64,000 nucleotides of DNA from a virus. The notes beneath the pieces are model-generated. The model was not told the DNA's origin, searched no databases, and saw nothing but the letters and a program-made list of their open reading frames with translations. Positions 9,028 to 63,212 of the stretch are shown in pieces. The position numbers were made by a program, and so were the translations under genes. The DNA is taken from the IMG/VR virus record IMGVR_UViG_3300032315_001604, positions 131,164-195,163 of that record; one strand, written 5' to 3'. Numbering within the stretch: position 1 is the first letter of the stretch; each line of letters begins with the position of its first letter.

Positions 9028-10656
9028 ATGAGAAGAAGAATAACAATTGACAGTTCCAGAAGCAATGACTTAAATAAAAAGATTGCCATTGTTAAAAATC
9101 TTGGATCTAATGAAATTAAAAGAGCACCTGCAAATGCTTTTTTAAATGTAAATGATGCTGTCAGTAACACATTAGGTCGAAGACAACCTGTATTTTTTGA
9201 AGTTGATGTTGATTTAAATCAAAAAGTAGAAAACGTTCTACCCAAAAAACCTTTCAGAGATATTATTCAACCATTAGAATTAGAAGAAAACAGAAATGAT
9301 ATTATAGTTACTGCAAGTCGTTTGGAACCGATCCCAACACCAACACCTACACCAACTCCTACCCCTACACCAACCCCACCACCTGCTATTTGTGTTTTTG
9401 GTGCAGGTACAAGTATTGTTAATGGAACTTATACATATTCATCAAACTTAACATATAGCAATATATATGGAATTGTTTTAAAAAGAAACGCAACAACATT
9501 AAAATGGGAAATAAATCAAAATTCAACCAATTTATACGATAACAATTATTCAGGATATGAACTTCCAACGTTTGGATGGAATGTAACAAACGGTTTGCCT
9601 AATGAGCCATCTATTTCACTTTTCCCTTGCCCGACACCTACACCATACGTAGATTTGAATATCAGTTGGAATATGTGCGGATATACTGTTACAGCATATA
9701 ATCCTTTATATAATGAAAACGACAGACCTAGAATAAACACATTTAGAACCGATGGTTCTTATGTTGTTTATATGTCAGCAGGTTATGTTTTATATAACCC
9801 ATACACATCATTAACAAGTATAGCACCATGGGGTAACAGAACTGTTGGAACAGAAAGTATAAGCATACCATTAACAGAAGGACTTTCCGCAGGAATTGAC
9901 TTATTTACAGCAATTAGCAGTATGCCAATTCCTATTTTTTCTCCAGATATATCAAATTGGTCTGTAGTTGATACAGGAAATTATAGAGAAAGAAAATATC
10001 AATTTATTGTTGGAAGTGAAGGAACATATAATATTTCTATAAATTATTGTGTACCTGTACCTACCCCAACACCAACACCAACACCTACCCCAACACCTAC
10101 CCCAACACCAACACCTACTCCTACCCCAACACCAACACCTACCCCAACACCTACCCCAACACCAACACCTACCCCAACACCTACACCTACACCAACACCA
10201 ACACCAAGTTATACCCCAACTCCTACACCAACTCCTTCTATTACACCTACCCCAACACCTACACCTACACGCACACCTGAACCATCACCTACTCCAACAC
10301 CACCCCCTACCCCAACACCGCCGCCGCCAACACCTAGTATTACTCCAACACCATCACCAAGTCCTTCACTTTCGCCATCACCAAGTCCTTCACCAAGTCC
10401 TTCACCAAGTCCTTCACTTTCGCCATCACCAAGTCCTTCACCAAGTCCTTCACCAAGTCCTTCACCAAGTCCTTCACCAAGTCCTTCACCAAGTCCTTCA
10501 CCAAGTCCTTCACCAAGTCCTTCACCAACACCGCCACCTCCTTCATCAACACCGCCACCTCCTTCATCAACACTGCCACCTCCTTCATCAACACCGCCAC
10601 CGCCAACTGAACCGCCACCTACGAAAAACGTAACAACAGCGTCAATGCCTTGGTAA
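9028..10656 (+). CDS. Pro/Thr/Ser-rich probable virion protein with long (PT)n and (PS)n tracts
   Basis: Two small beta-rich domains flanked by PT runs, and a C-terminal PT/PS/PPPSST tract; lies in the baseplate cluster. Confidence 0.7.
10060..10620 (+). repeat. Coding low-complexity repeat (CCNACN)n then (CCAAGTCCTTCA)n
   Basis: Directly visible; the PS tract uses a near-perfect 12-bp unit. Confidence 0.9.
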
Positions 10657-10671
10657 TAATAAATAATATAA

Positions 10672-12489
10672 ATGCCATACTACTATCAACAAAAAATAGC
10701 AGAAAGATATTTCACATATCATAATCTATGTCATGATGGTGAAAAAATAGAAAACAATAAGTTATATACTTTATTAGCACCTCAAAAATTTGGAACACTA
10801 GCTAAAAGTATTCCACCGTATATAACAACTAGTTTTTTATTATCTGGTGGATTGCCAACATATTATAACAACCTTGGAGCACCTGATCCTACTATCAAAT
10901 GGAGTATAGTAGAAATACCAAATCAAATACCCGATTTAAATTTGATTACACCATCAGTAACATCATCAATTCCTATAAAAATATCAACAAGAAATCAATT
11001 TAGCTATCCGTTTTCGATGGTCATAAGAAATATGTATTTCAAATTTAGATATTATATGACGCATCCCGCATCAGCAGCAAAGTTAAATCAGCCGAATCCT
11101 ACTGGACGTTGGATATATAGCAGAAAACCAGCATTTATAGAATATTTTACAAGATTTAATTATTTTAATTACGACTTTAAAAGAAAATATACCAATAATA
11201 CTGTTTTATCTGCATATGGTGTAGATTTAGATTCATATTATTATAACATTGTAGCATCAGACAGTAATAAAAATGTAACATATAAAGAAGTTAATGTTAC
11301 ATCAACAGATTTTATTGATAATAATACAATAAAAGAATCTTTAAGTGGTTCATTTTTAAGTAATAATATAAATTCAAATATTAGAATATATCCTTTTAAT
11401 TATGATTTATCAACACATCCTATTGATTTAAATACAGCCTTTGGCCATAAAGTTCGTTTATCAGAAAAAAATTTATTAGTTAGTGATCCTTTATCAGGCA
11501 ATGGTAGAATATATGTTTATGCTTTAAACAAATATATAACAGGAAATAAAATATTGCCTGATAAAATTTTGACATCAAATTTTGTTTTATCAGGATTTGG
11601 TAATGTTATAGAATATAAAGAAGTTAGAGATAAATCTAACAAAACATATAAAGAAGTTCTTGCCGTTTCAACACAAACAGCAAACAATTCAAGCGTTGAA
11701 ATTTTTAGTAATAATTTTGTTACTAAGATAAGTGGAGTAAAAATGTTTAATCTTTTGAATATTTCTATAAGCGGTCAAAGATTTAGAAACGTTTGGTTTT
11801 CCAAAGGAATTAATCAAGAAAACTTAAGTGGTACTGGTTATTATGGTTATGATTTAGGATTACAAGTACCAGATACTACTTTTAATAAAACAACAAACGT
11901 TTTATATGTCAGTGAACCATATAACAATCAAGGAATTGTATATGTTTATGGTTATCATAATTTTACAAATACTTGGAATTATATCACATCATTATCTTCC
12001 GCAAGTGCATTAAATTATGGAAAAAGTATTTCAGTAAGTGGACCATATGCAATTGTATCTGCTCCAAATAGTATTATAAGCGGTGTTACAGGAGCATTAA
12101 TAGATGTTTATAAATTTAGCACCTCAGATTTAAACGGTGTTCCATTATCCGCAGGTACAGCATTATTTTTAGACGGTGAACAATACGGTTTTTACACTTT
12201 AGAAAAAACCGATGAAATTTTTATTCCGTCAAATAAAAATTTAGGAAAACATATTGATTATAATGAAAATCAGTTAACAACTAATTTTTTAAATAGAAAA
12301 AATATAAATTTTTACGGAAACCATTTAGCTATTACTGGAGATAATAAAACAGAAATATACACAAGATATTTTGATAAATTTGAAAAAAATTGTCAAATAT
12401 CTTCTGCAACAAAAAGTAAAATTTGGGAAAATATAACATATCAAATAAGTAATAGTGCAGTATTTTTAAATGCTGCAAGAGTTCTTTGA
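10672..12489 (+). CDS. Probable virion structural protein with FG-GAP-like propeller repeats
   Basis: FGHKVRLS..LLVSDP..GRIYVY, YGKSISVSGPYAIVSAP; TAAATA at 10660-10665. Confidence 0.65.
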   Translation: MPYYYQQKIAERYFTYHNLCHDGEKIENNKLYTLLAPQKFGTLAKSIPPYITTSFLLSGGLPTYYNNLGAPDPTIKWSIVEIPNQIPDLNLITPSVTSSIPIKISTRNQFSYPFSMVIRNMYFKFRYYMTHPASAAKLNQPNPTGRWIYSRKPAFIEYFTRFNYFNYDFKRKYTNNTVLSAYGVDLDSYYYNIVASDSNKNVTYKEVNVTSTDFIDNNTIKESLSGSFLSNNINSNIRIYPFNYDLSTHPIDLNTAFGHKVRLSEKNLLVSDPLSGNGRIYVYALNKYITGNKILPDKILTSNFVLSGFGNVIEYKEVRDKSNKTYKEVLAVSTQTANNSSVEIFSNNFVTKISGVKMFNLLNISISGQRFRNVWFSKGINQENLSGTGYYGYDLGLQVPDTTFNKTTNVLYVSEPYNNQGIVYVYGYHNFTNTWNYITSLSSASALNYGKSISVSGPYAIVSAPNSIISGVTGALIDVYKFSTSDLNGVPLSAGTALFLDGEQYGFYTLEKTDEIFIPSNKNLGKHIDYNENQLTTNFLNRKNINFYGNHLAITGDNKTEIYTRYFDKFEKNCQISSATKSKIWENITYQISNSAVFLNAARVL

Positions 12490-12851
12490 TAGATAACATT
12501 TAAGATTGGGAGAATTCGGTGAAACTCTTCTAAAGAAGACAATACCGAGCCGAGCCGTTTTTAGGATAAAGGGAAACGGAAGGTGTAGAGACTAGAGGAT
12601 GAGCCTAACAATAAGCCTCACAAGAACCCAACAATTTTATATTTGCGAAAATATAAAAATTGAAGATATAGTCCAAACTTTATGGTGACATAAAGATTAA
12701 TAAAATGACGCTTCTAAACGGCAACGTCCACGGACATCAGCGCAAACTGGAGGTACGCCCCTTTGGCGGCGTTACCAAAAGGGCTTAGAAACAGTGGCTG
12801 GCTCCACCAAGGTACAAAAACGTGCCACATTAAATGTTATCTATTAAAGAA
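12482..12851 (+). ncRNA. Group I self-splicing ribozyme, predicted circularly permuted (break in loop L2)
   Basis: P4 UUCGGU 12515-20/ACCGAG 12544-49; P5 UCUUC-UAAA-GAAGA; P6/P6a; P7 GAGACUA 12588-94/UAGUCC 12669-74; J8/7 GAAGAUA; P3 UUGGG 12506-10/CCCAA 12627-31; P8 with GCGA loop; P9 CUUUAUG-GUGA-CAUAAAG; omega-G 12707; downstream P1 12811-26; 22-bp closing helix 12482-12503/12830-12851. Confidence is high for the group I core and somewhat lower for the permutation. Confidence 0.88.
12708..12813 (+). ncRNA. Predicted 106-nt circularised exon, a structured GC-rich RNA
   Basis: Lies between omega-G and the P1 U.G pair; stems UUCUAA/UUAGAA, GCCCcUUUGG/CCAAAaGGGC, GUGG/CCAC, UCAG/CUGG. Confidence 0.6.
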
Positions 12852-13425
12852 ACTTAACTTTTTTCTGTTTATACAATTTTTGTATAATATTTTTTTCCCA
12901 ATCTCCATCATGTTCTTTGGGTTTAGTATAAGATTTTTTAACCCAATAATGATGTTGATTTGACAAATCTTTTGAGAAATTATCAAGTCCTGCAATATAC
13001 ACGCTATCGTATAAATTTTCTAAAAGCCAAGAAATAACTAAAACTCCACTAGAAGGAATTAAATTATCCGCTTTTTCTTTTAATAAAGTTTCTTCTTTTA
13101 ATTTTTTTCTTAAACTATGATAAAACGATAAAGGAATTCTCCATATTTGTTTTGGCGTATAGGGAGGATTTCCAGAATCTCCATGAACATAAAGAATTTT
13201 GTTGGGTCGAATATCATCATCTGTCGGTATTTGTTTATCTCCCAAAGTACACCATACTGTTGTTTTACTGCCTACATATTTCTCATAACCTTTTATAGCA
13301 AATTTATTAAATCTAAAAATTGTATCAAAACTATCAATTATTTTACCTTTTTTTTGAAACAGTAAAGAAGGTCCATTTCCTATAATAATAGCAGAATTTT
13401 CTTTTTTTAATTCTAATGGATTCAT
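12844..13425 (-). CDS. GT29 (sialyltransferase-like) glycosyltransferase family protein; start at 13425 or 13452
   Basis: AIIIGNGPSLL..GKIIDSFDTIFRFN, PSSGVLVI, VYIAGLD, HHYW, HD..WE. Confidence 0.75.
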   Translation of the reverse strand: MNPLELKKENSAIIIGNGPSLLFQKKGKIIDSFDTIFRFNKFAIKGYEKYVGSKTTVWCTLGDKQIPTDDDIRPNKILYVHGDSGNPPYTPKQIWRIPLSFYHSLRKKLKEETLLKEKADNLIPSSGVLVISWLLENLYDSVYIAGLDNFSKDLSNQHHYWVKKSYTKPKEHDGDWEKNIIQKLYKQKKVKFL

Positions 13426-13430
13426 ATAGA

Positions 13431-13454
13431 TTTTGCGTAAATAATTACGCAAAA
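13431..13454. promoter_or_regulatory. Perfect 10-bp inverted repeat between divergent genes
   Basis: TTTTGCGTAA-ATAA-TTACGCAAAA. Confidence 0.5.
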
Positions 13455-13483
13455 GTAAAAAAACTCTATAAGTATTGAAATAA

Positions 13484-16348
13484 ATGGCTACTAAAAACTT
13501 TACACAGTTTGATCTTAGAACACCTTTGTTAACTTCAGACTATATTGTCGGATATACCACAAATGGTCTTGCAGAATTAAAAACAACAGTTCAAGATATT
13601 ATAAATTTAGTCCCTGTAAGCGACTCGACAATCATTCAAAACGCTTCTGCCAATTGGAATTCTGTTTATAGCTACACAAATGCCAATAGTTCTTTAGATC
13701 AATCTGCTAGAAGTTTTGTAAACTCCAATAGTGCTAATATTTTAAATTCATACAAAGGATCTAATTGGGTTTTTGCTAATAGTGCTACAGAACTTTCAGT
13801 TACAAGTGTAGTCAATAGTACATCTGCCAATTGGAATTCTGTTTATAGCTACACAAATGCCAATAGTTCTTTAGATCAATCTGCTAGAAGTTTTGTAAAC
13901 TCCAATAGTGCTAATATTTTAAATTCATACAAAGGCTCAAATTGGGTTTTTGCTAATAGTGCTACAGAACTTTCAGTAACTTCCGTTGTTAATAGTACTT
14001 CTGCTAACTGGAATAGTGTTTACAGTAACGTAAATGCAAATAGTGCAACATATGCCACTATCCTTTTTAGCAATAACAAATTTTTACCACTTTCTGGTGG
14101 TCAAATTACAGGAAGTTTAAATATAACAAATAATTTATTAGTTGGAGGAAATACAACAATAACTGGCAACTTAACAGGCAATAATATTTTTGCAAAAACT
14201 TTTACAACAGATAAGCCACAAACAATTTATCAAGGTGAAAGAAGAGATTTAACTATTAATAATGCAACAACAGTCAGTCAAGAACGTTTAGGTAGATTGA
14301 CGATGCTAACAATATTTAACGCAGGAGCAACATCGGTTTTAAATTTATCAGAAAGTGAAAACAATAGATTTTTAGAAGGCGATGTTGTCGGAATATGGGC
14401 AAGACAAGCTTTAAGTTTTACAGTAACTTATACTCCATATGGAGGTAGTGCTGTTACGGTATCAACATTTACAGGAAGTGGTGGATATAATACAGGAAGT
14501 GTTGCATTGTATTATAAAAATGGAACATTTATAACCCAAACTTTTGATGAACAAAATATAAAAGGCATTGCTTCTGAACTTAGAATTGAATCAATCCAAC
14601 CAAATGATCCAGGTGAACCATTTTCCACAATAGGTCGTGGATCTTTTGTTCATGCATTAACATTAAACGCAGGACATCCCAAATTTACAAATGGCTCTGA
14701 CCACTTTCATTTATTACATAACGGTACTGGTGGAAATTGGCAAACTTTAAATGGTGGATACAATTGGACACCACAAAGAATAACTCAACATACTTTAGCT
14801 TTTCGAGGAGCAGAAACAACAGCAAATATTGTTGCTGCTTATGGTGCTTCTTTAACAGCAAACCAAGTAACTCCACCGTATGGAGTTTATCCTAATCAGG
14901 CAAGCAATTATTTAACATTGTGGACAAGTAGCTATAGTTCATCATTAACAGTCGGAAAAATTGTATATTTTTCTGTAAGTCCTGCTGGTAGTGAAAATGC
15001 ATCATTAAGAAAAATAGGATTTACCGCATCATCTTTTCCTGCAAAGATTATATCAGTTAATGATATAGGATCAGCAGAATCTAATGCAGATATTCCTGCT
15101 GGAAATACGTTGCCAGGAACGGCAGTAAAACATTTTCGAGTTCAGCCTTTAAATTTAGCTGTTGATAACTGGTTAGGTGCTGCATTACTTTCAAATGGAT
15201 CTTTAAGATATAGTACAGTTCCTTCTTTTACTAATAGTATTACAAATACAGGAGAAGTTATTCGCTTACCAGGTGATACATTATTAGTTCCAGACACCCA
15301 AAGCACATCATTAAGTGCTAAAGGCGGTTATAACTATGTCTCAATGAGAAATGGTTGTGAACTTGTTTTTGATTTATCATTAACACCTTTACTATCCACA
15401 AGACAGCCATTTTTATATGAAGGATTGCCTGTTATTGTTTTATTATCAGAAATAACATCTTTAACTGCTACAAACTATAATGGGTTGACACCAAATTCTG
15501 CTAAATGTCAATACGGCTTACCTGTAGATTCAACATCTGGAAGTGCATATTTGGGAGAATTTACAAACTCTGTTGGTGGTTATTTACAACAAACATATGA
15601 TGGTTACATTTATAGATCAACACCAACTCAAGTTATTATTAGATTAGGACAAATTAGAGGTACTGAAGAGTCTAGAATGCAAAAACATGCAAGTCCAAAT
15701 ATAGACTATTTCGTAGGAAGATCTGGTATAGGAATTACTACTTCTACATTTGCAAAATCGTTACCTCCAGGCGGACTTTCTGCTGTAGAATTTAACGGTT
15801 ATCGTCTTACAGGAGTTTCTTCTGACAATAGATATGGTAGTTGGGCTAATTGTAGCACTGGAGCGGTTTACACATTACCCCCAATAATGAAAAGCGGAAT
15901 AGAATTTTCATCGTTCCCTGCAATTTCTTCATCTGACCTTCAACTATTTGTTTATGCAGGAAATAAAGACCCTGTTCATAGACCTGTTGCAGGAATGCAA
16001 TTATTTTCATATGAAAGATATCCAAACATTCAACCAGAATTAAAAGAAACTGGTGCTGTGGTTTCTAAATTTGCATTAGGACCAAGCTGTGAAGGATTTG
16101 ATAGAGATACTGCTGTTGTAGGGTTTGGTTCTACAGCATATCACTATAGAAGTATGGCAATTGGTCATAGAGTAGAAACTCTTTCTGCACAAGAAATTGC
16201 AATCGGTATCGATGACAGCGTTTTTAGAGTAGGATTAAGTAGTTTGTCAATATCACCAGCAATGTTAAGCTCTAATGGAGTAGATACATTCCTTAAAATT
16301 AAAAATGATAAGGGTCCATTATATGGATTGAAACTACAATTACTTTAA
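13484..16348 (+). CDS. Tail fibre-like virion protein
   Basis: SANWNSVYS repeats shared with the first ORF, FLPLSGGQITGSLNI fibre motif, and a 59-aa tandem duplication. Confidence 0.75.
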   Translation: MATKNFTQFDLRTPLLTSDYIVGYTTNGLAELKTTVQDIINLVPVSDSTIIQNASANWNSVYSYTNANSSLDQSARSFVNSNSANILNSYKGSNWVFANSATELSVTSVVNSTSANWNSVYSYTNANSSLDQSARSFVNSNSANILNSYKGSNWVFANSATELSVTSVVNSTSANWNSVYSNVNANSATYATILFSNNKFLPLSGGQITGSLNITNNLLVGGNTTITGNLTGNNIFAKTFTTDKPQTIYQGERRDLTINNATTVSQERLGRLTMLTIFNAGATSVLNLSESENNRFLEGDVVGIWARQALSFTVTYTPYGGSAVTVSTFTGSGGYNTGSVALYYKNGTFITQTFDEQNIKGIASELRIESIQPNDPGEPFSTIGRGSFVHALTLNAGHPKFTNGSDHFHLLHNGTGGNWQTLNGGYNWTPQRITQHTLAFRGAETTANIVAAYGASLTANQVTPPYGVYPNQASNYLTLWTSSYSSSLTVGKIVYFSVSPAGSENASLRKIGFTASSFPAKIISVNDIGSAESNADIPAGNTLPGTAVKHFRVQPLNLAVDNWLGAALLSNGSLRYSTVPSFTNSITNTGEVIRLPGDTLLVPDTQSTSLSAKGGYNYVSMRNGCELVFDLSLTPLLSTRQPFLYEGLPVIVLLSEITSLTATNYNGLTPNSAKCQYGLPVDSTSGSAYLGEFTNSVGGYLQQTYDGYIYRSTPTQVIIRLGQIRGTEESRMQKHASPNIDYFVGRSGIGITTSTFAKSLPPGGLSAVEFNGYRLTGVSSDNRYGSWANCSTGAVYTLPPIMKSGIEFSSFPAISSSDLQLFVYAGNKDPVHRPVAGMQLFSYERYPNIQPELKETGAVVSKFALGPSCEGFDRDTAVVGFGSTAYHYRSMAIGHRVETLSAQEIAIGIDDSVFRVGLSSLSISPAMLSSNGVDTFLKIKNDKGPLYGLKLQLL
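13646..14010 (+). repeat. 177-bp (59-aa) tandem duplication inside the fibre gene
   Basis: TCTGCCAATTGGAATTCTG at 13646 and 13823; the differences I checked are synonymous. Confidence 0.9.
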
Positions 16349-21100: not shown

Positions 21101-21563
21101 ATGTGGATGTGGAGTATCTTTTAATAAACCAAACGATTGTGCAAAAGCAGCAATATGTTCATATTGTAAAAAAGAAAAATTAAATAACAGAGGAGATATA
21201 CTGTCATCTTTAACATATCAAGTTAGTGCAGGTACGCCTGTTGTTATGAAAGTTAAATCGATAGATACGTATCGTTTAATACCTACAGGGTTTGTTAACG
21301 GAGTTTCAGCATATAGTTTAAACTCTTTAGCAACATCAATAGGATTAACAACAAATTGGCAAGACTATTACGAATTCTATTCTTATTTAAATGTAACTAA
21401 TAATAGTATTATTGAAAATTTGATAGATTGGTCTTCAGACCAAACAACAATTTCTAGAAATCTTTCTACTTTTAATGATTGGTATAAACAAGAAGGAATT
21501 TTAGATATGTTTTTTAATTATGAATTATATAATGGTTTAGGTTTATTGGATCAAAACGATTAA
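18186..21563 (+). CDS. Large baseplate-associated protein (PKD domain, NHL-like propeller)
   Basis: WNLGDG..VEHYYELPGEYNITL; repeated P.GI.TD.DNNIWV; directly follows gp6. Confidence 0.7.
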   Translation: MSNPLSINLNKYGGYTNASKFVFSTIYNTLSDLKFIKWNLGDGTIFYNQREVEHYYELPGEYNITLVGQTNSTFLSAVSTITVENFLKESVYFDFIPPPTFAGHYNRYPFRIKITSSTTDNHYVDLYAQFSRSYPYQEPQNKWSFLRPQWRFLDLSGNQIWNIKTTDYPIKITENNAISATGLTVGVTGFADFYFIDDIYNYDLALSGAPYTTIWATLQTSAIRVKSDGFNTDLTMPSYANSTSIAMAPYVVLRRTPELLDIRENGIKNYSNPRWTDAKQPILIKAGFADGYPDEWVDGIGIREYDKDANFARYIPLEAPNIPLSAGVLGLSGVEFFDKPEFQWIDDTTYKAAGYYKGNFTTTQPYAFGAYVTAYANIPTPATSGSFYNPLIWLSNPQAGTFSIAQYYYNNTSIFQQISTPNLNKAQVKTFNMPIIQNVDFDMDAMALSGFHGIYSIAALPAPQYHAWMSDSELDKLYRINSLGQILCSIDLKSIVEENNLGFLINKKVSPAQIALDGNRNILVTLYDTVSVLKFDQVGNFLYAINPFQVMTYDTPYSELRWFLESSYYDSSTSGDYDYNLIEPTGIDTDKDNNIWVSYSNSLSGFVLKYNSTGNVVYSLAAPLCSTPQEIVTDKDGNVWICYSGLNWNTLGKIEKRSSNGTLLRAITGLRNPNYLTLDTDQNLWFSFAFHNVGTINTRTGTFFQYTVIGQDLKPNDFPKKNRPFDSKESTEPWFDVLQNADETAIEGIACDMRGYLYIINSIENQVYVFNTKTRKVIDRFYVNPQGFLFYQHDQREPTIMAYYLWNKSLQAAGDWTGWRWTNKYGVNYLPYYTNTARNFYTSGISLPLDFYDRSVYTAFKINEDFNFSEKMYNVANMPILQESTNFFQNFLGSIFGKEPFYHDDLGVTAYEKIANFVTNQADVDTCEISQLYSLSEMVDLDSDDFQLNYPPSIKRVMNLASVNLSKLIGVKCGCGVSFNKPNDCAKAAICSYCKKEKLNNRGDILSSLTYQVSAGTPVVMKVKSIDTYRLIPTGFVNGVSAYSLNSLATSIGLTTNWQDYYEFYSYLNVTNNSIIENLIDWSSDQTTISRNLSTFNDWYKQEGILDMFFNYELYNGLGLLDQND

Positions 21564-57451: not shown

Positions 57452-57558
57452 GAAAACCTTTTCGGGAACCCTCTCGGAAACCTTGTGAAAACCCTTTCGG
57501 AAACTTTATAAAACCCTTCTCGGAACCCTTTCGGAACCCTTTCGGAAACTTTATAAAA
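57452..57558. repeat. Cluster of about 6 AACC(C/T)..TCGG repeats and two CGGAAACTTTATAAAA copies
   Basis: Units near 57452, 57466, 57488, 57510, 57524 and 57535. Confidence 0.8.
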
Positions 57559-57771
57559 ATTAGTTGTCAATATAATTTTTAGAAAAAATTTCTTGAAAAA
57601 TTTTCTAAAATGTTTTGAGAACCCCCTCTCAAAAGGCTTTTGGTATATTTTTCTGTATCTTCTCAAGAATATACCCCTTTAGGAAAGGTGTCAAGGAGAA
57701 TCTTATAATCTTCTAAGAAGAAACTTATAATCTTCTAAAGGTTTTTAATGTTAAAAAATTTATTACATAAT

Positions 57772-57815
57772 ATGGTGTAGCAATACAACATGGTGTAGCA
57801 ATGCAACATGGTGTG
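57772..57815. repeat. Three 18-bp-period repeats ATGGTGT(AGCAAT), with a fourth copy at 57014-57029
   Basis: ATGGTGT starts at 57772, 57790 and 57808; ACAACATGGTGTAGCA is identical at 57014 and 57785. Confidence 0.8.
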
Positions 57816-57825
57816 AAAATACCGC

Positions 57826-57853
57826 TTGACGTATCCATACAGTATGTTATAGT
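57826..57853 (+). promoter_or_regulatory. Early sigma70-type promoter
   Basis: TTGACG-N16-TATAGT with TG extension. Confidence 0.75.
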
Positions 57854-57859
57854 AGGAGT

Positions 57860-58036
57860 ATGAACAGTGGATTTTGGTGGAACAAACAATGTATGAAGGC
57901 AGACGATAGTTTCTGGCCTCATTTGTCAAAAGATTCAAGAAAGCAAATGCTTGGAACTTATGATGAATATCTTCGTTCACAGAAGAAGATTAAGAATACT
58001 AAAAGATTTGTAGAACAAGAGGAAGGAGGTGAATAA
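57860..58036 (+). CDS. 58-aa early protein missed by the ORF track (MNSGFWWNKQ...)
   Basis: Manual translation; AGGAG ribosome-binding site; directly after the promoter. Confidence 0.6.
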   Translation: MNSGFWWNKQCMKADDSFWPHLSKDSRKQMLGTYDEYLRSQKKIKNTKRFVEQEEGGE

Positions 58037-58039
58037 TAA

Positions 58040-58261
58040 ATGACAAAAGAAATCCGTTATAACTTGGTAGATTTCACAAATGGTGAGATCAATCGTAATA
58101 CCCCAAGAGATGAGAAGATGGAAGTTCTTGCTGAGTACATCAACCCTGAACGCTATACGTTCCTCGGTTTTGACAAGAATGGTTCTATCTTGCGTCTGCG
58201 TCCTCGCTTTCACAATGTCCGTGATTGCAAAGGCCGCTTCGCAGTTCGCCGTAAACGATAG
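58040..58261 (+). CDS. Small early protein ending RFHNVRDCKGRFAVRRKR
   Basis: GGAGGTGA ribosome-binding site; followed by a terminator. Confidence 0.7.
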   Translation: MTKEIRYNLVDFTNGEINRNTPRDEKMEVLAEYINPERYTFLGFDKNGSILRLRPRFHNVRDCKGRFAVRRKR

Positions 58262-58275
58262 TCAAATCTCTAATT

Positions 58276-58337
58276 GAGGGTTCGCCCTCTTTTCTAACAA
58301 AAAAGCCTTATGGGAATCGCATCTCATAAGGCTTTTT
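58276..58337 (+). terminator. UUCG terminator hairpin plus a second long hairpin
   Basis: GAGGG-TTCG-CCCTC-TTTT; AAAAAGCCTTATG..CATAAGGCTTTTT. Confidence 0.75.
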
Positions 58338-58442
58338 CCTTTTCTTTGAGATACTATTCTCAAGAAACTTGCAATCTTCTAAAACCCTTTGATAAATGAT
58401 TCTCGCAAAACTTACAATCTTCTAAAAAATATCTTCGAAGTT

Positions 58443-58475
58443 TTAGAAGATTTCATGAATCTTGTAATCTTCTAA
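58443..58475. promoter_or_regulatory. 33-bp palindromic element, copy 1 (others at 59419-59451 and 63126-63158)
   Basis: TTAGAAGATT-N4-GAATC-N4-AATCTTCTAA. Confidence 0.75.
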
Positions 58476-58510
58476 AGATTTCGGCCTACGAAAAAAACGA
58501 AAAAAAGTCC

Positions 58511-58538
58511 TTGACGGATATTTTGGTTCTGGTAGAGT
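58511..58538 (+). promoter_or_regulatory. Early sigma70-type promoter
   Basis: A-tract, TTGACG-N16-TAGAGT. Confidence 0.75.
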
Positions 58539-58547
58539 TATTACGTT

Positions 58548-58754
58548 ATGGGACACACCTCTAAAGAGTTTATAAACAAGGTCGAAGAAGCCAAAAGTCT
58601 TGGTTTCCGTATCGAAGAAAAAGGCAACACCATCAAACTGTTTCCCCCTGATCCTACCTATCCGTTCTATACGGCTCATAGGGGAGAAAGAGCAGTTCAC
58701 CCTATCCGCAGATATTTGAAAAAATATCTTGCATCCATCAACAACAACCAATAG
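58548..58754 (+). CDS. Small HicA-like (dsRBD-fold) protein
   Basis: Pattern LGFRIEEKGNTIKLFPPD..YTAH..IRRYLKK and 68-aa size fit HicA, but the usual GSH motif is absent. Confidence 0.4.
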   Translation: MGHTSKEFINKVEEAKSLGFRIEEKGNTIKLFPPDPTYPFYTAHRGERAVHPIRRYLKKYLASINNNQ

Positions 58755-58768
58755 ATTACGTATACTAT

Positions 58769-58930
58769 ATGCACCAATACAAAGTCCACCTGCCCCAAAA
58801 AAACAATTGGGACTACGATGATAATATGCTTGACAGCTTCTTTATGTCAGGCTTGAACCGAAGCTCCTCATCTCATGAGGAAGAACAAGAGATTCGCCTT
58901 GACGAATCCTTGGACATGGATAAGAATTAA
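58769..58930 (+). CDS. 53-aa acidic early protein
   Basis: Manual translation MHQYKVHLPQKNNWDYDD...; fills the gap before the tRNA. Confidence 0.45.
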   Translation: MHQYKVHLPQKNNWDYDDNMLDSFFMSGLNRSSSSHEEEQEIRLDESLDMDKN

Positions 58931-58936
58931 CTTTAC

Positions 58937-59012
58937 GGCGCAGTAGTCCAATGGCAGAGACAACAGACTTAAAATCTGTCAAGTGTGGGTTCGAGTCCCA
59001 CCTGCGCTACCA
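58937..59012 (+). tRNA. trnL: tRNA-Leu(UAA) with short variable loop, CCA encoded
   Basis: Acceptor GGCGCAG/CTGCGCT; anticodon arm ACAGA-CTTAAAA-TCTGT; T arm GTGGG-TTCGAGT-CCCAC; ends ACCA. Confidence 0.9.
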
Positions 59013-59015
59013 CCT

Positions 59016-59240
59016 ATGACAATAAAACGAAACCACTGGCAAAACGAAGAGGTCATTCAAATTCTGAAACATCTCCGACTTGATTCAACATACGAACACT
59101 ACAACTATGCCCTTGATCAGGTGAATAGTATCTTTGCAAGATTCGAGCAACATTATACAGAACCTTCTGCGCTTGCATACTTGACCGACCAAGATTCAAT
59201 CATAGGAGTAGGCCCAAAAAAGTATGAACATCAAAGCTAA
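59016..59240 (+). CDS. Hypothetical early protein
   Basis: ATG just after the tRNA; the ORF-track start at 58983 lies inside the tRNA. Confidence 0.55.
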   Translation: MTIKRNHWQNEEVIQILKHLRLDSTYEHYNYALDQVNSIFARFEQHYTEPSALAYLTDQDSIIGVGPKKYEHQS

Positions 59241-59337
59241 CGAAATCATGAAAAAAACATCTCTCTTCATTGCATTTGTTTGGTGCATAATTTTTTGGGC
59301 ACTTATCGGCTATGGCATCCTCCATTTGCTGAAATAA
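59224..59337 (+). CDS. 37-aa membrane peptide
   Basis: MNIKANEIMKKTSLFIAFVWCIIFWALIGYGILHLLK, ending just before a terminator. Confidence 0.45.
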   Translation: MNIKANEIMKKTSLFIAFVWCIIFWALIGYGILHLLK

Positions 59338-59357
59338 AAAATCCAAACAACAAAAGC

Positions 59358-59389
59358 AAAAGGCGAATCTTTCGAGGTTCGCCTTTTTT
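59358..59389 (+). terminator. Intrinsic terminator with UUCG loop
   Basis: AAAAGGCGAATCT-TTCG-AGGTTCGCC-TTTTTT. Confidence 0.85.
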
Positions 59390-59764
59390 GTTTTTCACGG
59401 AAACGGCGGAAGCACCTTTTAGAAGATTGCATGAATCATTCCATCTTCTAAACCATGGCGGAAAGCTCCTAACATAAGGCGGAAGGGATGTCAAACCCTT
59501 TTAGAAGATGGTAAGATTCTTTTGAAAAAAAACTATTGACAGCTTTCTCCCCTTGTGAAAGACTTGGGCATGTTCAAACCAACGGACAAATACAAGATCG
59601 TGAAAAGCGACAAGCTCCAAGACCATCTTGACATGGAATTAAAAAATATCCTTGACATGTGGCTCAACCCTGAGTATGTTCGCGCTATTCAAAAATTGGA
59701 GGAAATCTACTCAAAACAAAATTATCTTTACAACTAACCAAAAACAACCTAACCTAAAAACACC

Positions 59765-61777
59765 ATGAAACTAAACACCACTACCAACACCATTGAACGT
59801 ATCGGCAACGTGTCCAACGAGGCACAGTTCCGTATGAAAACCTCGCAGAAGGCATTTCAGATTCTCTCTGACTTGTATTCTGACAAACCTCTCGCCGTTG
59901 TGCGTGAGTTGGGATGTAATGCTGCTGACAGCATGAGTGCTGCTGGCAAAGCAGACCAACCCTTCAACATCCATCTTCCTAACTCTCTGGAACCTTGGTT
60001 GACCATTCAAGACTTTGGGACAGGCATTTCCCATAAAGACATCTATGACATCTATACTGTCTATTTTGCTTCGACCAAGACCAACAGCAATAGTCAGATT
60101 GGTTGCCTTGGTCTTGGCAGTAAGTCTCCCTTCTGCTATACGGACAACTTCTCTGTGACCTCTATCGTCAACGGAGAGAAGCGCATCTACAATGCTTACT
60201 TCAATGAAGAAGGCACTCCTGCGATTGCGGTTATGTCCACGACCAACACCACTGAATCCAATGGGGTCGCCGTCCAGATTCCGATTAAGGCTACGGACTT
60301 CAACGACTTTACTGTTGCTGTCGAGAAGGCATTTCGTTTCTTCGATGTCAAGCCTAACATCACTGGTGGAAAGATTGCATGGAATACGGACAAGCCTCTC
60401 TTTGTGGCAGACGATTGGGCTTTCTATGAGAAGATGGCAGACCGCTATCACGGCGAATCCTTCGCTATCATGGGCGGCGTGACCTATCCTATCAATACCT
60501 ACCAAGTGCGTGATGAAGAAGGCGAGTATCATCAGATGCTTCGTAATGGTCTGGTCTTGAAGTTTGCGATGGGAGAGTTGGACTTCACTCCTGCGAGGGA
60601 TGCTCTCTCCTATACTCCTATGACAATCAAGGCGATTCACGATAAGCTCGCCAAAGTCAAGGCAGAGTTGCCCATCAAGGTCACGGAGATTATCGACCAG
60701 AAAGATACTCTCTTGGAAGGAATCCGTGCTACCTTGTTCTTCATCGAGAAGTTCTACTTCCTCAACATGAATCGCATTGGTTCAAACAAGAATGTCAAGA
60801 TCACTTGGAAAGGTATTGACATTACAGAACCTACTGGCTTTTTCAAAAAGCTCGCGCCTGACATGGAGTTGTTCAGCAAACGATCCTATCATCGTCGCAA
60901 GATCAGCGTCAGCACTCAACCACAATTCGGTAGTGAGATCGAATGGTATGTCAATGACATGAATCGTGGTGGAGAACGTCGAGTGCGCTCCTATGTTTCT
61001 ACCACAAGCAAGACTGTCATGGTATTCAATGCTGTTGACTATAACAATCTGCTCCAAAACAATTTTGCAGCCGATATGTTCAAGATGGCATCTTCGCTTC
61101 CTTCTCCTACTGTTCACCGCAAGGTTCGTAGTAATGGAACAGTTGTGCAAAAAGCCAAGGAAGATATTACTATCTACAACTTTGGGGAAATGCACAAAGA
61201 GAAGTGGGACAGTGAAGTGATCGAACCTTCCGAGAATCTTCCTAAATACTACTTTGTCAAAGAGACAGATGGTTGGGGATTGAAGCTCAAGCTCAACGGC
61301 ATCCGAGTTCTTTCTACCAAGGGAGAGTTGGCAAACATTCTCGCCGCTTTCGGTATCTCGCGTGATGAAGTCTGCATGGTTTCCTCGCGTGAGGAGAAGA
61401 AGATTATCCAACGTGGAGGATGCAAGAATCTTGCAACGTGGTGGAACACTAACATCAAAGTCGAGTTCGATGCGAATGAGTTGAAAACTCTGGAAGAATA
61501 CGAGTTCTACCACATGGACAATATCATTGGTCATAAGAAGTTCAAAGACCTTGACGATTCCAATTCCATCAAGGTTGCAATCAATACGCTCAAGACCTTG
61601 AAAGCAAAGTATGTCAAGATCAAAGATGTCTCGCACTACTTGGAAAACTTCAAGAACGGAAAGAAAGTCAAGTTCCCTCTTACGGAAGCGGAAGCGATTG
61701 TGTTTGACTTCATCCGTAATTGCGGTCACTACGATTGCGACAAGTATATGGTGCTTGCCAAAGCACTTGAAAAATAA
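59765..61777 (+). CDS. rIIA: rIIA-like protein (N-terminal GHKL/HSP90-like ATPase)
   Basis: AFQILSDLYSDKPLAVVRELGCNAADS, IQDFGTGI, YFASTK..IGCLGLGSKSPF, G..YP; adjacent to rIIB. Confidence 0.9.
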   Translation: MKLNTTTNTIERIGNVSNEAQFRMKTSQKAFQILSDLYSDKPLAVVRELGCNAADSMSAAGKADQPFNIHLPNSLEPWLTIQDFGTGISHKDIYDIYTVYFASTKTNSNSQIGCLGLGSKSPFCYTDNFSVTSIVNGEKRIYNAYFNEEGTPAIAVMSTTNTTESNGVAVQIPIKATDFNDFTVAVEKAFRFFDVKPNITGGKIAWNTDKPLFVADDWAFYEKMADRYHGESFAIMGGVTYPINTYQVRDEEGEYHQMLRNGLVLKFAMGELDFTPARDALSYTPMTIKAIHDKLAKVKAELPIKVTEIIDQKDTLLEGIRATLFFIEKFYFLNMNRIGSNKNVKITWKGIDITEPTGFFKKLAPDMELFSKRSYHRRKISVSTQPQFGSEIEWYVNDMNRGGERRVRSYVSTTSKTVMVFNAVDYNNLLQNNFAADMFKMASSLPSPTVHRKVRSNGTVVQKAKEDITIYNFGEMHKEKWDSEVIEPSENLPKYYFVKETDGWGLKLKLNGIRVLSTKGELANILAAFGISRDEVCMVSSREEKKIIQRGGCKNLATWWNTNIKVEFDANELKTLEEYEFYHMDNIIGHKKFKDLDDSNSIKVAINTLKTLKAKYVKIKDVSHYLENFKNGKKVKFPLTEAEAIVFDFIRNCGHYDCDKYMVLAKALEK

Positions 61778-61829
61778 TTGAAAAAATCTATTGACAACAA
61801 ACAACAAACCATATAACCTAAAAGACGAT

Positions 61830-62819
61830 ATGAATAACCATACCACAGCAGTTACTATTACAGGCAACGGCAAGATTGCCGCTGTTATCGACGGCACGGC
61901 TTACTCCGTGGAAACCGATCACCCGAACCATGCCAAGGCACTTGACGCTATTCGCAACAGCGATTGGGAAGCCTTCTTGGATTGTGTTGACCTTTCTCGC
62001 AAAGTCCGTGATTACACTCACAACACCAACGTCGAGATTAAGGACGGCATCATCGTGTTCGATGGTGAGCCAGTTCACAACACCTTGACCAAGAGGGTCA
62101 TTAGCTTCATGCAGCAAGACTTGCCCTTCAAGCCTATGCTCAACTTCCTCTGCAACCTCATGGAGAATCCCTCCAAGAGAGCCGTGGATGAGTTGTATGA
62201 TTTCCTTGAGGCAGGTGAGTTGCCCCTTACTGAAGATGGTCACTTCCTCGCCTTCAAGAATGTCAAGTCTGACTACAAAGACATCTACTCTGGCAAGTTT
62301 GACAATGCGGTTGGTGCTATCTGTGAAATGAAGCGCAACCAAGTTGACGAGGACAAAGATCGCACTTGCAGCTACGGCTTGCACTTCTGCTCTATTGCTT
62401 ACCTTCCTCACTTCCGAGACAGCAACGGAGGAAAGACTATGATCGTCAAGATCAATCCAAAGGATGTTGTGGCGATTCCCGCCGATTACAACAACACCAA
62501 AGGACGCACTTGCCGCTACGAAGTTATTGGTGAATACACCGAAAACTGGCGCGAGAAGATTGGCCGTGGAGAATCTGGTTGGGATGCTGACCTCTACTCC
62601 TCCGATGGTGGAGAGTATGAGGATGAGGATTCCGATGAGTGGAACGATTGCTGCGATGACGGCAACTGCTACTGCAACGAAGATGATCAAGCCTATGATG
62701 ATCACTTGGATGAAGTCAGCAACGGATACTCTCCCGATGTTTATGGAGTCAAACCTAACGGAGACAGATACCACAATGTCCGTGGCGATGATGGGAAGTT
62801 CCAGAAGAAGAATGTGTAG
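61830..62819 (+). CDS. rIIB: rIIB-like protein; start moved to ATG 61830
   Basis: NFLCNLMENPSKRAVDELYDFL..LPLTEDGHFLAFK.V, CSYGLHFCS..YL, VKINPKDVVAIP.DYNNTKGRTCRYEV. Confidence 0.92.
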   Translation: MNNHTTAVTITGNGKIAAVIDGTAYSVETDHPNHAKALDAIRNSDWEAFLDCVDLSRKVRDYTHNTNVEIKDGIIVFDGEPVHNTLTKRVISFMQQDLPFKPMLNFLCNLMENPSKRAVDELYDFLEAGELPLTEDGHFLAFKNVKSDYKDIYSGKFDNAVGAICEMKRNQVDEDKDRTCSYGLHFCSIAYLPHFRDSNGGKTMIVKINPKDVVAIPADYNNTKGRTCRYEVIGEYTENWREKIGRGESGWDADLYSSDGGEYEDEDSDEWNDCCDDGNCYCNEDDQAYDDHLDEVSNGYSPDVYGVKPNGDRYHNVRGDDGKFQKKNV

Positions 62820-62837
62820 TGGTGCTGGTTAGTGGGT

Positions 62838-62870
62838 AGGGGGAGAGAGTTGTGGTGGCTCTCTCCCCCT
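62838..62870 (+). other. 12-bp GC-rich hairpin between rIIB and the tRNAs
   Basis: AGGGGGAGAGAG/CTCTCTCCCCCT with no U-tract. Confidence 0.6.
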
Positions 62871-62923
62871 CTACTATTGAAACATGCAATCTTCTAAACA
62901 CCACATTAAGTATTTTATATTTT

Positions 62924-62996
62924 GCGTTTGTAGCTCAGTGGATAGAGCAGTAGCCTTCTAAGCTATTGGTCGCAGGTTCGATCCCTGCCAAACGCG
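62924..62996 (+). tRNA. trnR: tRNA-Arg(UCU), CCA not encoded
   Basis: Acceptor GCGTTTG/CAAACGC; anticodon loop CTTCTAA; T loop TTCGATC. Confidence 0.95.
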
Positions 62997-63000
62997 CATA

Positions 63001-63211: not shown

Positions 63212-63212
63212 C

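What the first reader, a model, noticed from the sequence alone, without database searches (positions are those of the whole stretch)
12708..12813. The predicted circle is a compact, GC-rich, multi-stem RNA of unknown function
Seen: in a very AT-rich genome this exon is GC-rich. It folds by eye into a multibranch: UUCUAA(12712-17)/UUAGAA(12785-90), ACG-GCAA-CGU, UCAG-CGCAAA-CUGG, GCCCcUUUGG/CCAAAaGGGC and GUGG-CUGGCU-CCAC. I cannot assign it to tRNA, tmRNA, RNase P, SRP or a small ribozyme. Inference: circularisation would make it exonuclease-resistant, which would suit a protein sponge or anti-defence decoy, an aptamer, or a virion-packaged RNA.
Basis: partly seen in the sequence, partly recalled or inferred. 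Interest (0 to 1): 0.75.

Follow-up and report, generated by a model that had tools for sequence, protein, structure and literature searches.

The report
Conserved non-coding RNA circle from permuted intron
The GC-rich 106-base stretch is a conserved, folded, non-coding RNA enclosed by a back-to-front self-splicing group I intron. This layout should release it as an RNA circle; I found no published natural example, and what the circle does is unknown.

Summary
Window 12708-12813 is real and unusual. It has 56.6% G+C in a 31% G+C phage genome, which puts it in the top 0.2% of 106-nt windows.

It lies between omega-G (12707) and a P1 hairpin with a U.G pair (5' splice site after U12813). Both belong to a complete group I ribozyme (Rfam RF00028, 80 bits). 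The ribozyme's halves are in swapped order and are clamped by a 22-bp P2 helix (12482-12503 / 12830-12851).

Through homologues of the upstream 605-aa gene I found the same element in about ten divergent metagenomic phage lineages. The swapped layout, P1, P10, omega-G and P2 are all kept, with many compensatory changes.

- **Non-coding:** exon lengths are 97-130 nt in all three length classes modulo 3.
- **Folded:** a covarying closing helix, a YACG-capped hairpin and a hairpin arm of unrelated sequence form a three-way junction.
- **Constrained:** a 29-nt block holds 83% mean pairwise identity, against 49% at synonymous sites next door.
- **No match:** no Rfam, tRNA or tmRNA hit.

A second marks a conserved hairpin site. 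Folding energy alone is not significant.

Circle formation and function were not tested. This scan has reported permuted group I introns on other DNA, but all had coding exons.

The parts
12456..12477 (+). Upstream 9-bp hairpin in the last codons of the 605-aa ORF. It has a U.G pair at U12461. Rfam aligns it as 'P1'. Whether it belongs to the element is uncertain.
   Evidence: It is kept in most homologues, with one synonymous compensatory change in L119, but is degraded in L122, L124, L125 and L127.
12482..12503 (+). P2 3' arm. It contains the ORF's TGA stop at 12487-89 and pairs with 12830-12851.
   Evidence: A 22-bp helix, unique among 81 same-subgroup introns, where the next best is 13 bp. 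Seven pairs carry compensatory changes and 95.6% of cells are paired.
12506..12695 (+). Ribozyme core of group IA type: P3, P4, P5, P6a, P7, P7.1, P8, J8/7 and P9.
   Evidence: RF00028, 80.3 bits, E 9e-21. Helices were located. P3, P5, P6a and P8 covary. Identity to homologues is 74-97%.
12696..12707 (+). Linker after P9, ending in omega-G (G12707). The 3' splice site is 12707|12708.
   Evidence: G12707, A12708 and C12709 are invariant in 13 sequences. The segment resembles the terminal ...AAUAAAAUUG of conventional relatives.
12708..12813 (+). Exon, the predicted 106-nt circular RNA. It is non-coding.
   Evidence: It lies between omega-G and the 5' splice site. Homologous exons are 97-130 nt in all three length classes modulo 3. 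No Rfam or tRNA match.
12712..12717 (+). S1 5' strand, the closing helix of the three-way junction.
   Evidence: It pairs with 12785-12790. At least six different sequence versions exist, and five of six pairs covary.
12719..12747 (+). Conserved block A. It includes S2 (12721-22 / 12740-41) and hairpin S3 (12726-28 / 12733-35, loop CACG).
   Evidence: Mean pairwise identity is 83%, against 49% at synonymous sites of the adjacent gene. S3 covaries C-G to U-A, 6 to 6.
12747..12784 (+). Variable arm: a 2-4 bp basal stem, a small internal loop and a distal hairpin.
   Evidence: Every homologue folds a hairpin here with unrelated sequence. Distal stems are 5-11 bp. The first basal pair is C-G, U-A or G-C.
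12785..12790 (+). S1 3' strand.
12791..12813 (+). Conserved block B (ACAG..GCU.G.UCCAC..GGU), ending in the exon half of P1. After ligation, with 12708-12711, it forms the second lobe of the circle.
   Evidence: AACAG and GC are invariant in nine exons. AACAGAAGCUAG is kept even in the divergent L126 exon. No supported internal helix.
12811..12826 (+). P1 hairpin, GGU|AC-AAAAAC-GUGCC. U12813.G12824 marks the 5' splice site. The internal guide CGU (12821-23) can also pair with the exon's first bases ACG (P10).
   Evidence: GGGU|A...GUGCCC is kept in all ten homologues. The extra base pair changes G-C to A-U in L123. P10 changes from ACG/CGU to ACU/AGU in L126.
12830..12851 (+). P2 5' arm. It overlaps the stop codon of the antisense GT29-like gene.

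Best explanation
The 106-nt segment is the exon of a natural circularly permuted group IA intron. The DNA order is P2 3' arm, P3-P9 core, omega-G, exon, P1, P2 5' arm. The element sits just after an FG-GAP-like structural gene in a family of AT-rich phages.

Inferred mechanism:
1. The + strand transcript folds, and the 22-bp P2 helix joins the two ribozyme halves.
2. Exogenous G attacks after U12813.
3. The freed 3'-OH of U12813 attacks after G12707.
4. This ligates U12813 to A12708 and releases a 106-nt covalently closed RNA.

Shown by comparison: the exon is a conserved non-coding RNA. Helix S1 closes a three-way junction. That junction carries a near-invariant 29-nt block with a YACG-capped hairpin and an arm of free sequence. 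A second conserved segment of about 27 nt spans the ligation junction.

Inferred, not shown: the circle itself is the functional product. It would be a nuclease-resistant, trans-acting RNA that binds a conserved protein or RNA partner through its invariant unpaired bases during late infection.
For: Ribozyme core:
- RF00028 scores 80.3 bits in the window and 73-84 bits in four homologous loci.

Permuted layout, kept in about ten lineages whose flanking protein is 35-87% identical:
- 97.9% of 965 base-pair cells are canonical, against 38-47% when partners are slid.
- 28 pairs carry double changes, and 0 of 500 shuffles reach this.
- P2 has 7 covarying pairs.
- Omega-G, the U.G pair and the guide sequence are kept, with one compensatory change in P1 and one in P10.

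Exon structure:
- 97% of cells are paired against 76% in shuffles, and 21 cells carry double changes against 6.1.

Exon sequence constraint:
- Block A holds 83% identity, against 49% at synonymous sites.

Non-coding:
- Exon lengths fall in all three classes modulo 3, and the window's circle has stops in all frames.
- The phage hardly uses Shine-Dalgarno sites.

Block A is probably not needed for splicing:
- L126 has lost most of it, yet has the best-scoring ribozyme (83.6 bits) and intact P1, P10 and omega-G.

Permuted group I constructs from phage T4 make circles in bacteria (Ford and Ares 1994, as cited in PMC13580324).
Against: - No RNA data. Neither splicing nor the circle has been observed.
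- Folding energy of the exon is not better than shuffled sequence.
- No partner was found. The 195-kb genome holds no complementary site, and there is no covarying exon-intron helix.
- Exon identity overall (47-75%) is lower than that of the intron core.
- In natural permuted group II ribozymes the circles are poorly conserved and thought to be by-products (PMC8637638). A cis or by-product role is therefore a fair prior.
- Only 9-10 distinct exons are available, and they are phylogenetically related.
Confidence: 0.6

Rival explanations
1. The exon is a cis-acting scaffold and the circle is a by-product. S1 and the end-to-end complementarity only bring the two splice sites together. The selected outcome is RNA processing: a structured 3' end for the upstream structural-gene mRNA, or cutting a polycistronic late transcript.
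For: - The element always directly follows the 605-aa gene, and the gene's stop codon lies inside P2.
- In L119/L120 it lies between two co-directional genes.
- The exon's 5' and 3' ends are more complementary than shuffles give, mean 5.3 against 3.4 bp.
- Block B is kept even in L126.
- The circles of permuted group II ribozymes are regarded as by-products.
Against: - A processing role does not explain 83% identity of a 29-nt unpaired or weakly paired block far from both splice sites.
- L126 keeps an intact ribozyme without that block.
- No exon-intron covariation was found.
Confidence: 0.22
2. The exon is a ligand-sensing, aptamer-like domain. Ligand binding stabilises S1. This frees the 5' splice site from pairing with the exon's 5' end and switches back-splicing on. 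Alternatively, the circle acts as a small-molecule sponge.
For: - The architecture is typical of riboswitch aptamers: a closing helix of free sequence, conserved junction nucleotides and a variable distal hairpin.
- S1's 5' strand can alternatively pair with the ...AGGGU 5' splice-site sequence.
- From my own knowledge: an allosteric group I ribozyme gated by a c-di-GMP-II aptamer is known in Clostridioides difficile (Lee et al. 2010, Science).
Against: - No match to any Rfam riboswitch.
- The alternative pairing has no fixed register and no clean covariation.
- No ligand candidate and no metabolic gene context.
Confidence: 0.08
3. A decaying or inactive intron relic. The stretch is a structured 3' UTR without splicing, and the GC-rich part is kept only by descent.
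For: - No homing endonuclease gene and no expression data.
- An earlier candidate in this scan turned out to be an orphan intron tail (e1-5323357).
Against: - All catalytic hallmarks and both splice sites are kept across lineages where synonymous sites are saturated.
- There are 28 compensatory pairs.
- A relic would not maintain the U.G pair, omega-G, P10 and a 22-bp long-range helix.
Confidence: 0.05
4. An ordinary, non-permuted intron. It would use the upstream hairpin (5' splice site after U12461) as P1, and the GC-rich stretch would be its 3' exon or untranslated region.
For: - Rfam aligns 12456-12477 as P1 in a full-length match.
- The U.G pair is present in 8 of 13 sequences, and L119 shows a synonymous compensatory change.
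Against: - The hairpin joins the distal end of the 22-bp P2, not its base.
- The U.G pair is lost in L124 and L125, there is no hairpin in L127, and L126 has no wobble pair.
- Splicing from there would give non-conserved C-termini.
- It leaves the conserved downstream P1 and the P2 5' arm unexplained.
Confidence: 0.03
5. A circular mRNA. The GGAGGU, 8-nt spacer and UUG at 12763 would start a 43-codon frame that crosses the ligation junction.
For: - The Shine-Dalgarno-like motif and its spacing are present in the window.
- Other permuted group I introns found by this scan carry endless reading frames.
Against: - The motif and the frame are not conserved.
- Exon lengths fall in all three classes modulo 3.
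- The window's circle has stops in all three frames.
- Only 11 of 179 ORFs in this phage have any Shine-Dalgarno-like 4-mer upstream.
Confidence: 0.02

Closest known systems
Canonical phage group IA self-splicing introns (Rfam RF00028), such as the T4 td intron. Also the 81 same-subgroup introns fetched from IMG/VR (L016-L095).
   Same: Same catalytic core: P3-P9, J8/7 AAGAUAUAGUCC, P7.1, GNRA loops on P8 and P9, omega-G, and P1 with a U.G pair plus internal guide. Rfam scores are 73-84 bits.
   Different: - The order is permuted, with P1 and the P2 5' arm lying 3' of the core.
- P2 is a 22-bp intermolecular-type clamp instead of a short hairpin.
- There is no P9.1/P9.2 and no homing endonuclease.
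- The 'exon' is an internal 97-130 nt non-coding RNA, not a host gene.
Engineered permuted intron-exon (PIE) constructs (Puttaraju and Been 1992; Ford and Ares 1994, cited in PMC13580324).
   Same: Identical logic. The intron is split in a peripheral loop, the halves are swapped around an insert, and back-splicing circularises the insert.
   Different: This one is natural, conserved in about ten phage lineages, and split in P2. The insert is a conserved structured RNA rather than a chosen payload.
Natural circularly permuted group II ribozymes (Roth et al. 2021, PMC8637638).
   Same: A natural permuted self-splicing ribozyme with reversed internal splice sites, giving small RNA circles (15-86 nt there). 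The biological role is unknown.
   Different: - A different ribozyme class and chemistry, with no branch.
- Phage-borne and tied to one structural gene.
- Here the circle has a strongly conserved sequence block and covarying structure. CP group II circles are poorly conserved.
Permuted group I introns with coding exons reported earlier by this scan on other DNA (e1-2303837, e1-3801096, e1-4043171, e1-3805400, e1-3805942, e1-4042550).
   Same: Swapped-half group I ribozyme predicted to release its middle piece as a circle. Those notes also found no published natural example.
   Different: Those exons are 135-336 nt, multiples of three and stop-free (endless ORF). This exon family is non-coding. 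Those notes are unchecked AI reports, and I did not compare their sequences.
Allosteric group I ribozyme with a c-di-GMP-II aptamer (Lee et al. 2010, Science; from my own knowledge).
   Same: A structured RNA domain next to a group I ribozyme, with alternative pairings that involve a splice site.
   Different: There the aptamer is upstream of a non-permuted ribozyme and its ligand is known. Here no ligand, no family match and no fixed alternative register are seen.

Membership tests
Group I intron (RF00028) | Conserved catalytic core (P3-P9, J8/7, P7 G-binding helix) scoring above the curated cut-off | tested here: met
   80.3 bits against a gathering score of 50. Four homologous loci score 73-84 bits. 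P3, P5, P6a and P8 covary.
Group I intron (RF00028) | P1 with a U.G wobble at the 5' splice site, an internal guide that also pairs with the 3' exon (P10), and omega-G at the 3' splice site | tested here: met
   GGU|AC...GUGCC at 12811-26. P10 is ACG/CGU. G12707 is invariant. All are kept in ten homologues, with compensatory changes in L123 (P1) and L126 (P10).
Group I intron (RF00028) | Canonical 5'-to-3' order P1-P2-P3...P9, with the intron interrupting a host gene | tested here: not met
   P1 and the P2 5' arm lie 3' of P9 and the exon. The 22-bp P2 is long-range. The element follows the stop codon of the upstream gene.
Group I intron (RF00028) | GTP-dependent self-splicing activity | not testable with these tools
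Permuted intron-exon RNA cyclase / circular RNA | 3' splice site upstream of the 5' splice site on one transcript, with intron halves able to reassemble | tested here: met
   Omega-G at 12707 precedes the 5' splice site at 12813. The P2 clamp is conserved with covariation.
Permuted intron-exon RNA cyclase / circular RNA | Detected back-splice junction or exonuclease-resistant product | not testable with these tools
Circular mRNA with endless ORF (class seen earlier in this scan) | Exon length a multiple of 3, with a stop-free frame conserved among relatives | tested here: not met
   Lengths are 106, 114, 109, 97, 107, 114, 105, 108, 109 and 130 nt. The window's circle has stops in all frames.
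Known non-coding RNA families (tRNA, tmRNA, RNase P, SRP, riboswitches, small ribozymes) | Covariance-model or ARAGORN match of the exon | tested here: not met
   No exon hit at E<=10 in the window or at E<=1 in nine homologous loci. ARAGORN finds nothing on the doubled exon.
Riboswitch-type aptamer | Junction architecture with conserved core nucleotides, a closing helix of free sequence and an alternative pairing to an expression platform | tested here: inconclusive
   The three-way junction and conserved block are met. The alternative pairing of S1 with the 5' splice site exceeds shuffles but has no fixed register. No ligand is known.

The most novel reading that the evidence does not exclude
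Phages of this family use a natural permuted group I ribozyme as an RNA cyclase. It would mass-produce, late in infection, a roughly 100-nt circular non-coding RNA. The RNA's invariant 29-nt core would bind and titrate a conserved host or phage factor: a protein, an RNA, or a small signalling molecule. That would make it a circular RNA decoy or sponge, a kind of phage effector not described so far.
Probability: 0.3. Interest if true: 0.9.

Novelty: new variant of a known kind. Interest (0 to 1): 0.8.

Why it matters
Group I introns have been studied for 40 years, and the permuted intron-exon trick is the workhorse of synthetic circular RNA. Yet six full-text searches found no natural permuted group I intron. 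Only permuted group II ribozymes are in print.

Here the permuted layout is conserved with abundant covariation across phage lineages whose neighbouring gene has saturated synonymous sites. Unlike the group II case, the excised piece is itself a conserved, folded, non-coding RNA.

That makes three things directly testable:
- Whether bacteria-infecting viruses make functional circular non-coding RNAs.
- What such an RNA binds.
- Whether nature's split site (P2, with a 22-bp clamp) and its exon-closing helix are good design rules for RNA circularisation.

Tried and rejected
Searches for homologues that found nothing useful:
- blastn against GenBank phages gave only 44-51 nt hits to other introns.
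- Exon 16-mer and 17-mer patterns in IMG/VR gave chance hits only.
- An intron-plus-P1 pattern found none in IMG/VR and one chance hit in JGI metagenomes.
- Protein-guided searches of IMG/VR with the 605-aa protein and with GT29 found none.
- Relatives found through the gp6-like baseplate protein lack the whole island.
- The 81 introns sharing GAAGATATAGTCCAAAC are conventional, not permuted.
- What finally worked was search for homologous proteins with the 605-aa protein, followed by the look-up of encoding contigs.

Readings rejected:
- **P9.1/P9.2-type extension:** the terminal AAUAAAAUG segment precedes the GC-rich part.
- **tRNA, permuted tRNA or tmRNA**.
- **Tandem duplication of two ACGC...AGGU units:** the inner parts are not similar (p=0.86).
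- **Internal AGGUACGC as a conserved alternative splice site:** it is absent from all homologues.
- **Coding circle**.
- **Antisense target in the phage genome**.
- **Exon-intron tertiary helix**.
- **Recurrent promoter motif AAATAAGTAATA:** 24 matches against 39 expected.

- The genome search cannot draw relatives for a virus record.
- I could not score a re-joined, un-permuted sequence against RF00028, because typed or rearranged sequence is not accepted.

Full report
**What is there**

The window is the last 64 kb of a 195,163-bp IMG/VR virus record with 31.4% G+C. Positions 12708-12813 have 56.6% G+C, and only 0.18% of 106-nt windows in the genome reach this.

The stretch lies in a non-coding gap of about 355 nt. 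On one side is a 605-aa + strand ORF (10672-12489) with no Pfam or PHROG family and a weak FG-GAP propeller lead. On the other is a minus-strand GT29-like glycosyltransferase gene (12844-13452; PF00777, 2.6e-22). Both sit inside a baseplate module, with a gp25-like gene at 8520 and a gp6-like gene at 16378.

**The surrounding ribozyme**

A whole-window Rfam scan at gathering threshold saw only three tRNAs. A scan of 12300-13000 found a full-length group I intron match at 12452-12695 (RF00028, 80.3 bits, E 9e-21). It is the only such match in the genome.

I located the helices:
- P3: 12506-10 / 12627-31
- P4: 12515-21 / 12543-49
- P5: 12526-30 / 12535-39
- P6a: 12555-60 / 12574-79
- P7: 12590-94 / 12669-73
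- P7.1: 12595-98 / 12616-19
- P8: 12635-44 / 12649-58
- P9: 12678-84 / 12689-95

The order of the outer parts is swapped. After P9 comes a 12-nt linker ending in G12707, then the GC-rich stretch. Next is a hairpin, GGU|AC-AAAAAC-GUGCC (12811-26), with a U12813.G12824 wobble. After it comes a 22-nt arm (12830-51) that pairs perfectly with 12482-12503, directly 5' of P3 (one G.U pair). That is the topology P1-J1/2-P2...P2'-J2/3-P3 with the P2 loop opened.

Three further points fit this reading:
- The guide CGU (12821-23) can also pair with the first exon bases ACG (P10).
- Among 81 introns of the same subgroup from IMG/VR, the best comparable long-range helix is 13 bp, against 22 here.
- Conventional relatives end ...UGAAUAAAAUUG after P9.1/P9.2. 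This resembles the window's AUUAAUAAAAUG and places the 3' splice site before the GC-rich part, not after it.

The whole 12485-12845 region folds far better than shuffles (z=-5.9).

**Finding relatives**

DNA searches of GenBank phages, IMG/VR and JGI metagenomes gave nothing. Relatives found through the gp6-like protein lack the whole island.

The 605-aa protein has eleven 90%-identity clusters of homologues in the large protein collection, at 98-35% identity. Their contigs carry a 260-430 nt gap after the gene. That gap aligns with the window's element at 78-91% identity.

Eight further complete versions are available (L117, L119, L121, L122, L123, L124, L125, L127), besides near-duplicates. 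L126 is cut just after P1, and L113-116 are cut inside the exon.

**The permuted ribozyme is conserved**

I counted the helices named above, together with P2 and the exon helices, on the 13-sequence alignment:
- 97.9% of 965 cells form standard pairs, against 38-47% when partners are slid by 1-3 columns.
- 28 pairs have changes on both sides, against 12.5 in shuffles. 0 of 500 shuffles reach this.
- P2 alone has seven compensated pairs. Examples are ...AACAUUUAA/UUAAAUGUU... in the window...AAUAUUCGA/UCGAAUAUU... in L121 and ...ACAAAAAUUAA/UUAAUUUUUGU... in L127.

G12707, A12708 and C12709 are invariant. All versions keep (G/A)GGU|A...GUGCC(C/U/A). The added pair is G-C in most, A-U in L123 and A.A in the window. 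P10 is ACG/CGU in most and ACU/AGU in L126.

Divergence of the element tracks that of the gene, with L117 nearest and L126 and L127 farthest. This argues for co-descent rather than recent spread.

**The exon itself**

Exon lengths are 106, 114, 109, 97, 107, 114, 105, 108, 109 and 130 nt. They fall in all three classes modulo 3. The window's circle has stops in every frame.

The GGAGGU-8 nt-UUG motif at 12749-65 is not conserved. Only 11 of 179 ORFs in this phage have any Shine-Dalgarno-like 4-mer upstream. The exon is therefore non-coding.

By energy alone it is unremarkable (z=+0.96 linear, +0.5 circular). Comparison reveals a defined fold:
- **S1 (12712-17 / 12785-90).** It exists as UUCUAA/UUAGAA, UCCUUG/CAAGGA, UCCUAG/CUAGGA, UGUUUA/UAAACA, GGGUCG/CGACUC and CUGCC/GGCAG. 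In L126 it is UUGAUCAU/AUGAUUAA. Five of six pairs covary.
- **S3 (12726-28 / 12733-35, GUY-YACG-RAC).** It switches C-G to U-A, 6 to 6.
- **S2 (12721-22 / 12740-41).** It is 2 bp in most sequences. By my reading of L127 it is a 4-bp GGAG/CUCC there.
- **Variable arm (12747-84).** Every sequence has a 2-4 bp basal stem, a small internal loop and a 5-11 bp distal hairpin of unrelated sequence. The first basal pair is C-G, U-A or G-C.

On the exon alignment alone, 97% of cells pair against 76% in shuffles. 21 cells carry double changes against 6.1, and 0 of 500 shuffles reach this. An all-against-all covariation screen returned only these helices and the intron's own.

The circle would thus be a helix (S1) with two lobes. 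One is a three-way junction. The other is a loop of about 27 nt that carries the ligation junction and the conserved ACAG..GCU.G.UCCAC block.

- The first stem is confirmed.
- The fourth marks the right place, but the homologues favour the competing register (12752-61 / 12765-76).
- The other three are not supported. ACG-GCAA-CGU conflicts with S3 and is broken in three sequences. UCAG/CUGG is inconsistent. GUGG/CCAC varies on one side only.

**Selection**

Against the window, gene DNA identity is 57-86%, intron core 74-97% and exon 47-75%. Within the exon the picture is split. Block A (12719-47) has a mean pairwise identity of 83%, and 90-97% to the window in six of eight lineages. Block B has 68%, and the intron core 91%. 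Synonymous third positions of the adjacent gene are at 49%.

So part of the exon is held almost as tightly as the catalytic core, while its helices drift with compensation.

L126 is informative. It has lost most of block A and gained about 50 nt before the 5' splice site. Yet it has the best Rfam score (83.6 bits) and intact P1, P10 and omega-G. This suggests block A is not needed for splicing, and it tilts me towards a function of the released RNA.

**What it is not**

- No Rfam family matches any exon.
- No tRNA or tmRNA is found, even on the doubled exon.
- There is no second copy or complementary site in the genome.
- The 47- and 59-nt halves are not a tandem duplication.
- The ligation-junction 8-mer AGGUACGC does recur at 12751-58 in the window, with a chance of about 0.002 by my estimate. 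It is absent from all homologues, so it is not a family feature.

**Open points**

- The exon's 5' end (AUCCU...) is complementary to its 3' end (...AGGGU) more than shuffles give, 5.3 against 3.4 bp. The register varies, and the pairing competes with S1 and P1. It could be a splice-site clamp, a switch, or a post-ligation hairpin with an ACG loop.
- The hairpin at 12456-77, which Rfam takes for P1, is kept in most lineages. L119 shows one synonymous compensatory change. The hairpin is degraded in four lineages.
- A conventional splice from that hairpin would join the distal end of P2 and give non-conserved protein tails. I rate that reading at about 3%.

**Literature and earlier notes**

Six full-text searches found no natural permuted group I intron. 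Natural permuted group II ribozymes are known. Their circles are 15-86 nt, poorly conserved and of unknown role (PMC8637638). Engineered permuted group I constructs make circles in bacteria (Ford and Ares 1994, cited in PMC13580324).

This scan's earlier notes report permuted group I introns on other DNA, all with stop-free coding exons. One candidate turned out to be an orphan intron tail. The present family differs in having a non-coding exon.

**Verdict**

The exon is a conserved, structured, non-coding RNA of no known family. It sits inside a conserved natural permuted group I intron and should be released as a circle of about 100 nt. Circle formation and function remain inferred.

- Best reading: a trans-acting circular RNA (0.6).
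- Main rival: a cis scaffold whose circle is a by-product (0.22).

Noticed in passing
window 12456-12477: A hairpin in the last codons of the 605-aa ORF with a U.G pair at 12461. Rfam aligns it as P1, and a terminator-like scan also picks it up. L119 keeps it through two synonymous, compensating changes (U-A to C-G). It is degraded in L122, L124, L125 and L127. The last 42 nt of the ORF are 77% identical on average, above the gene's level.
   Followed up: partly
window 1-64000: The Rfam gathering-threshold scan of the whole window missed an 80-bit group I intron. A small-region E-value scan found it. This is a filter artefact in AT-rich sequence.
   Followed up: yes
window 12844-13452 (minus strand): A GT29 (sialyltransferase-family) gene antisense to the tail module. 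Its stop codon lies inside the ribozyme's P2 5' arm. The same gene follows the element in L117, L121, L122, L123 and L127, but not in L119/L120 or L124.
   Followed up: partly
L119 2003-2436; L120 2005-2438: In these relatives the permuted intron lies between two co-directional genes: the 605-aa homologue, then a 600-aa protein that heads a gene order like the one following GT29 in L117 and L123. Splicing would cut a polycistronic transcript into two pieces that are still held together by P2.
   Followed up: no
window 9028-16348: A four-gene island (542 aa, 605 aa, GT29, 954 aa) plus the ribozyme sits between gp25-like and gp6-like baseplate genes. In relative L108 those two genes are adjacent. 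The island proteins have no relatives in the IMG/VR collection searched.
   Followed up: partly
L126 3019-3148: A divergent 130-nt exon in the lineage whose 605-aa protein is 43% identical. S1 is kept with a new sequence and AACAGAAGCUAG is kept. Block A is mostly gone, and about 50 nt including an AT-rich hairpin are inserted before the 5' splice site.
   Followed up: partly
whole genome (G000): Only 11 of 179 long ORFs have a Shine-Dalgarno-like 4-mer upstream, and G is not enriched there. This suggests a host with Shine-Dalgarno-independent initiation, such as Bacteroidota.
   Followed up: no
window 59888-62767 and genome 289-2303: Clusters of 106-nt windows with 52-62% G+C near the tRNA genes, and at the other end of the contig. 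An E-value Rfam scan of window 57500-64000 gives no significant hit beyond three tRNAs. The genome 289-2303 stretch was fetched but not scanned.
   Followed up: partly
window 12751-12758 and 21230-21237: The predicted ligation-junction 8-mer AGGTACGC occurs inside the exon and once more at 21230. Genome-wide there are 2 on the + strand and 0 on the - strand, against about 1.5 expected. The internal copy is not conserved in homologues.
   Followed up: yes
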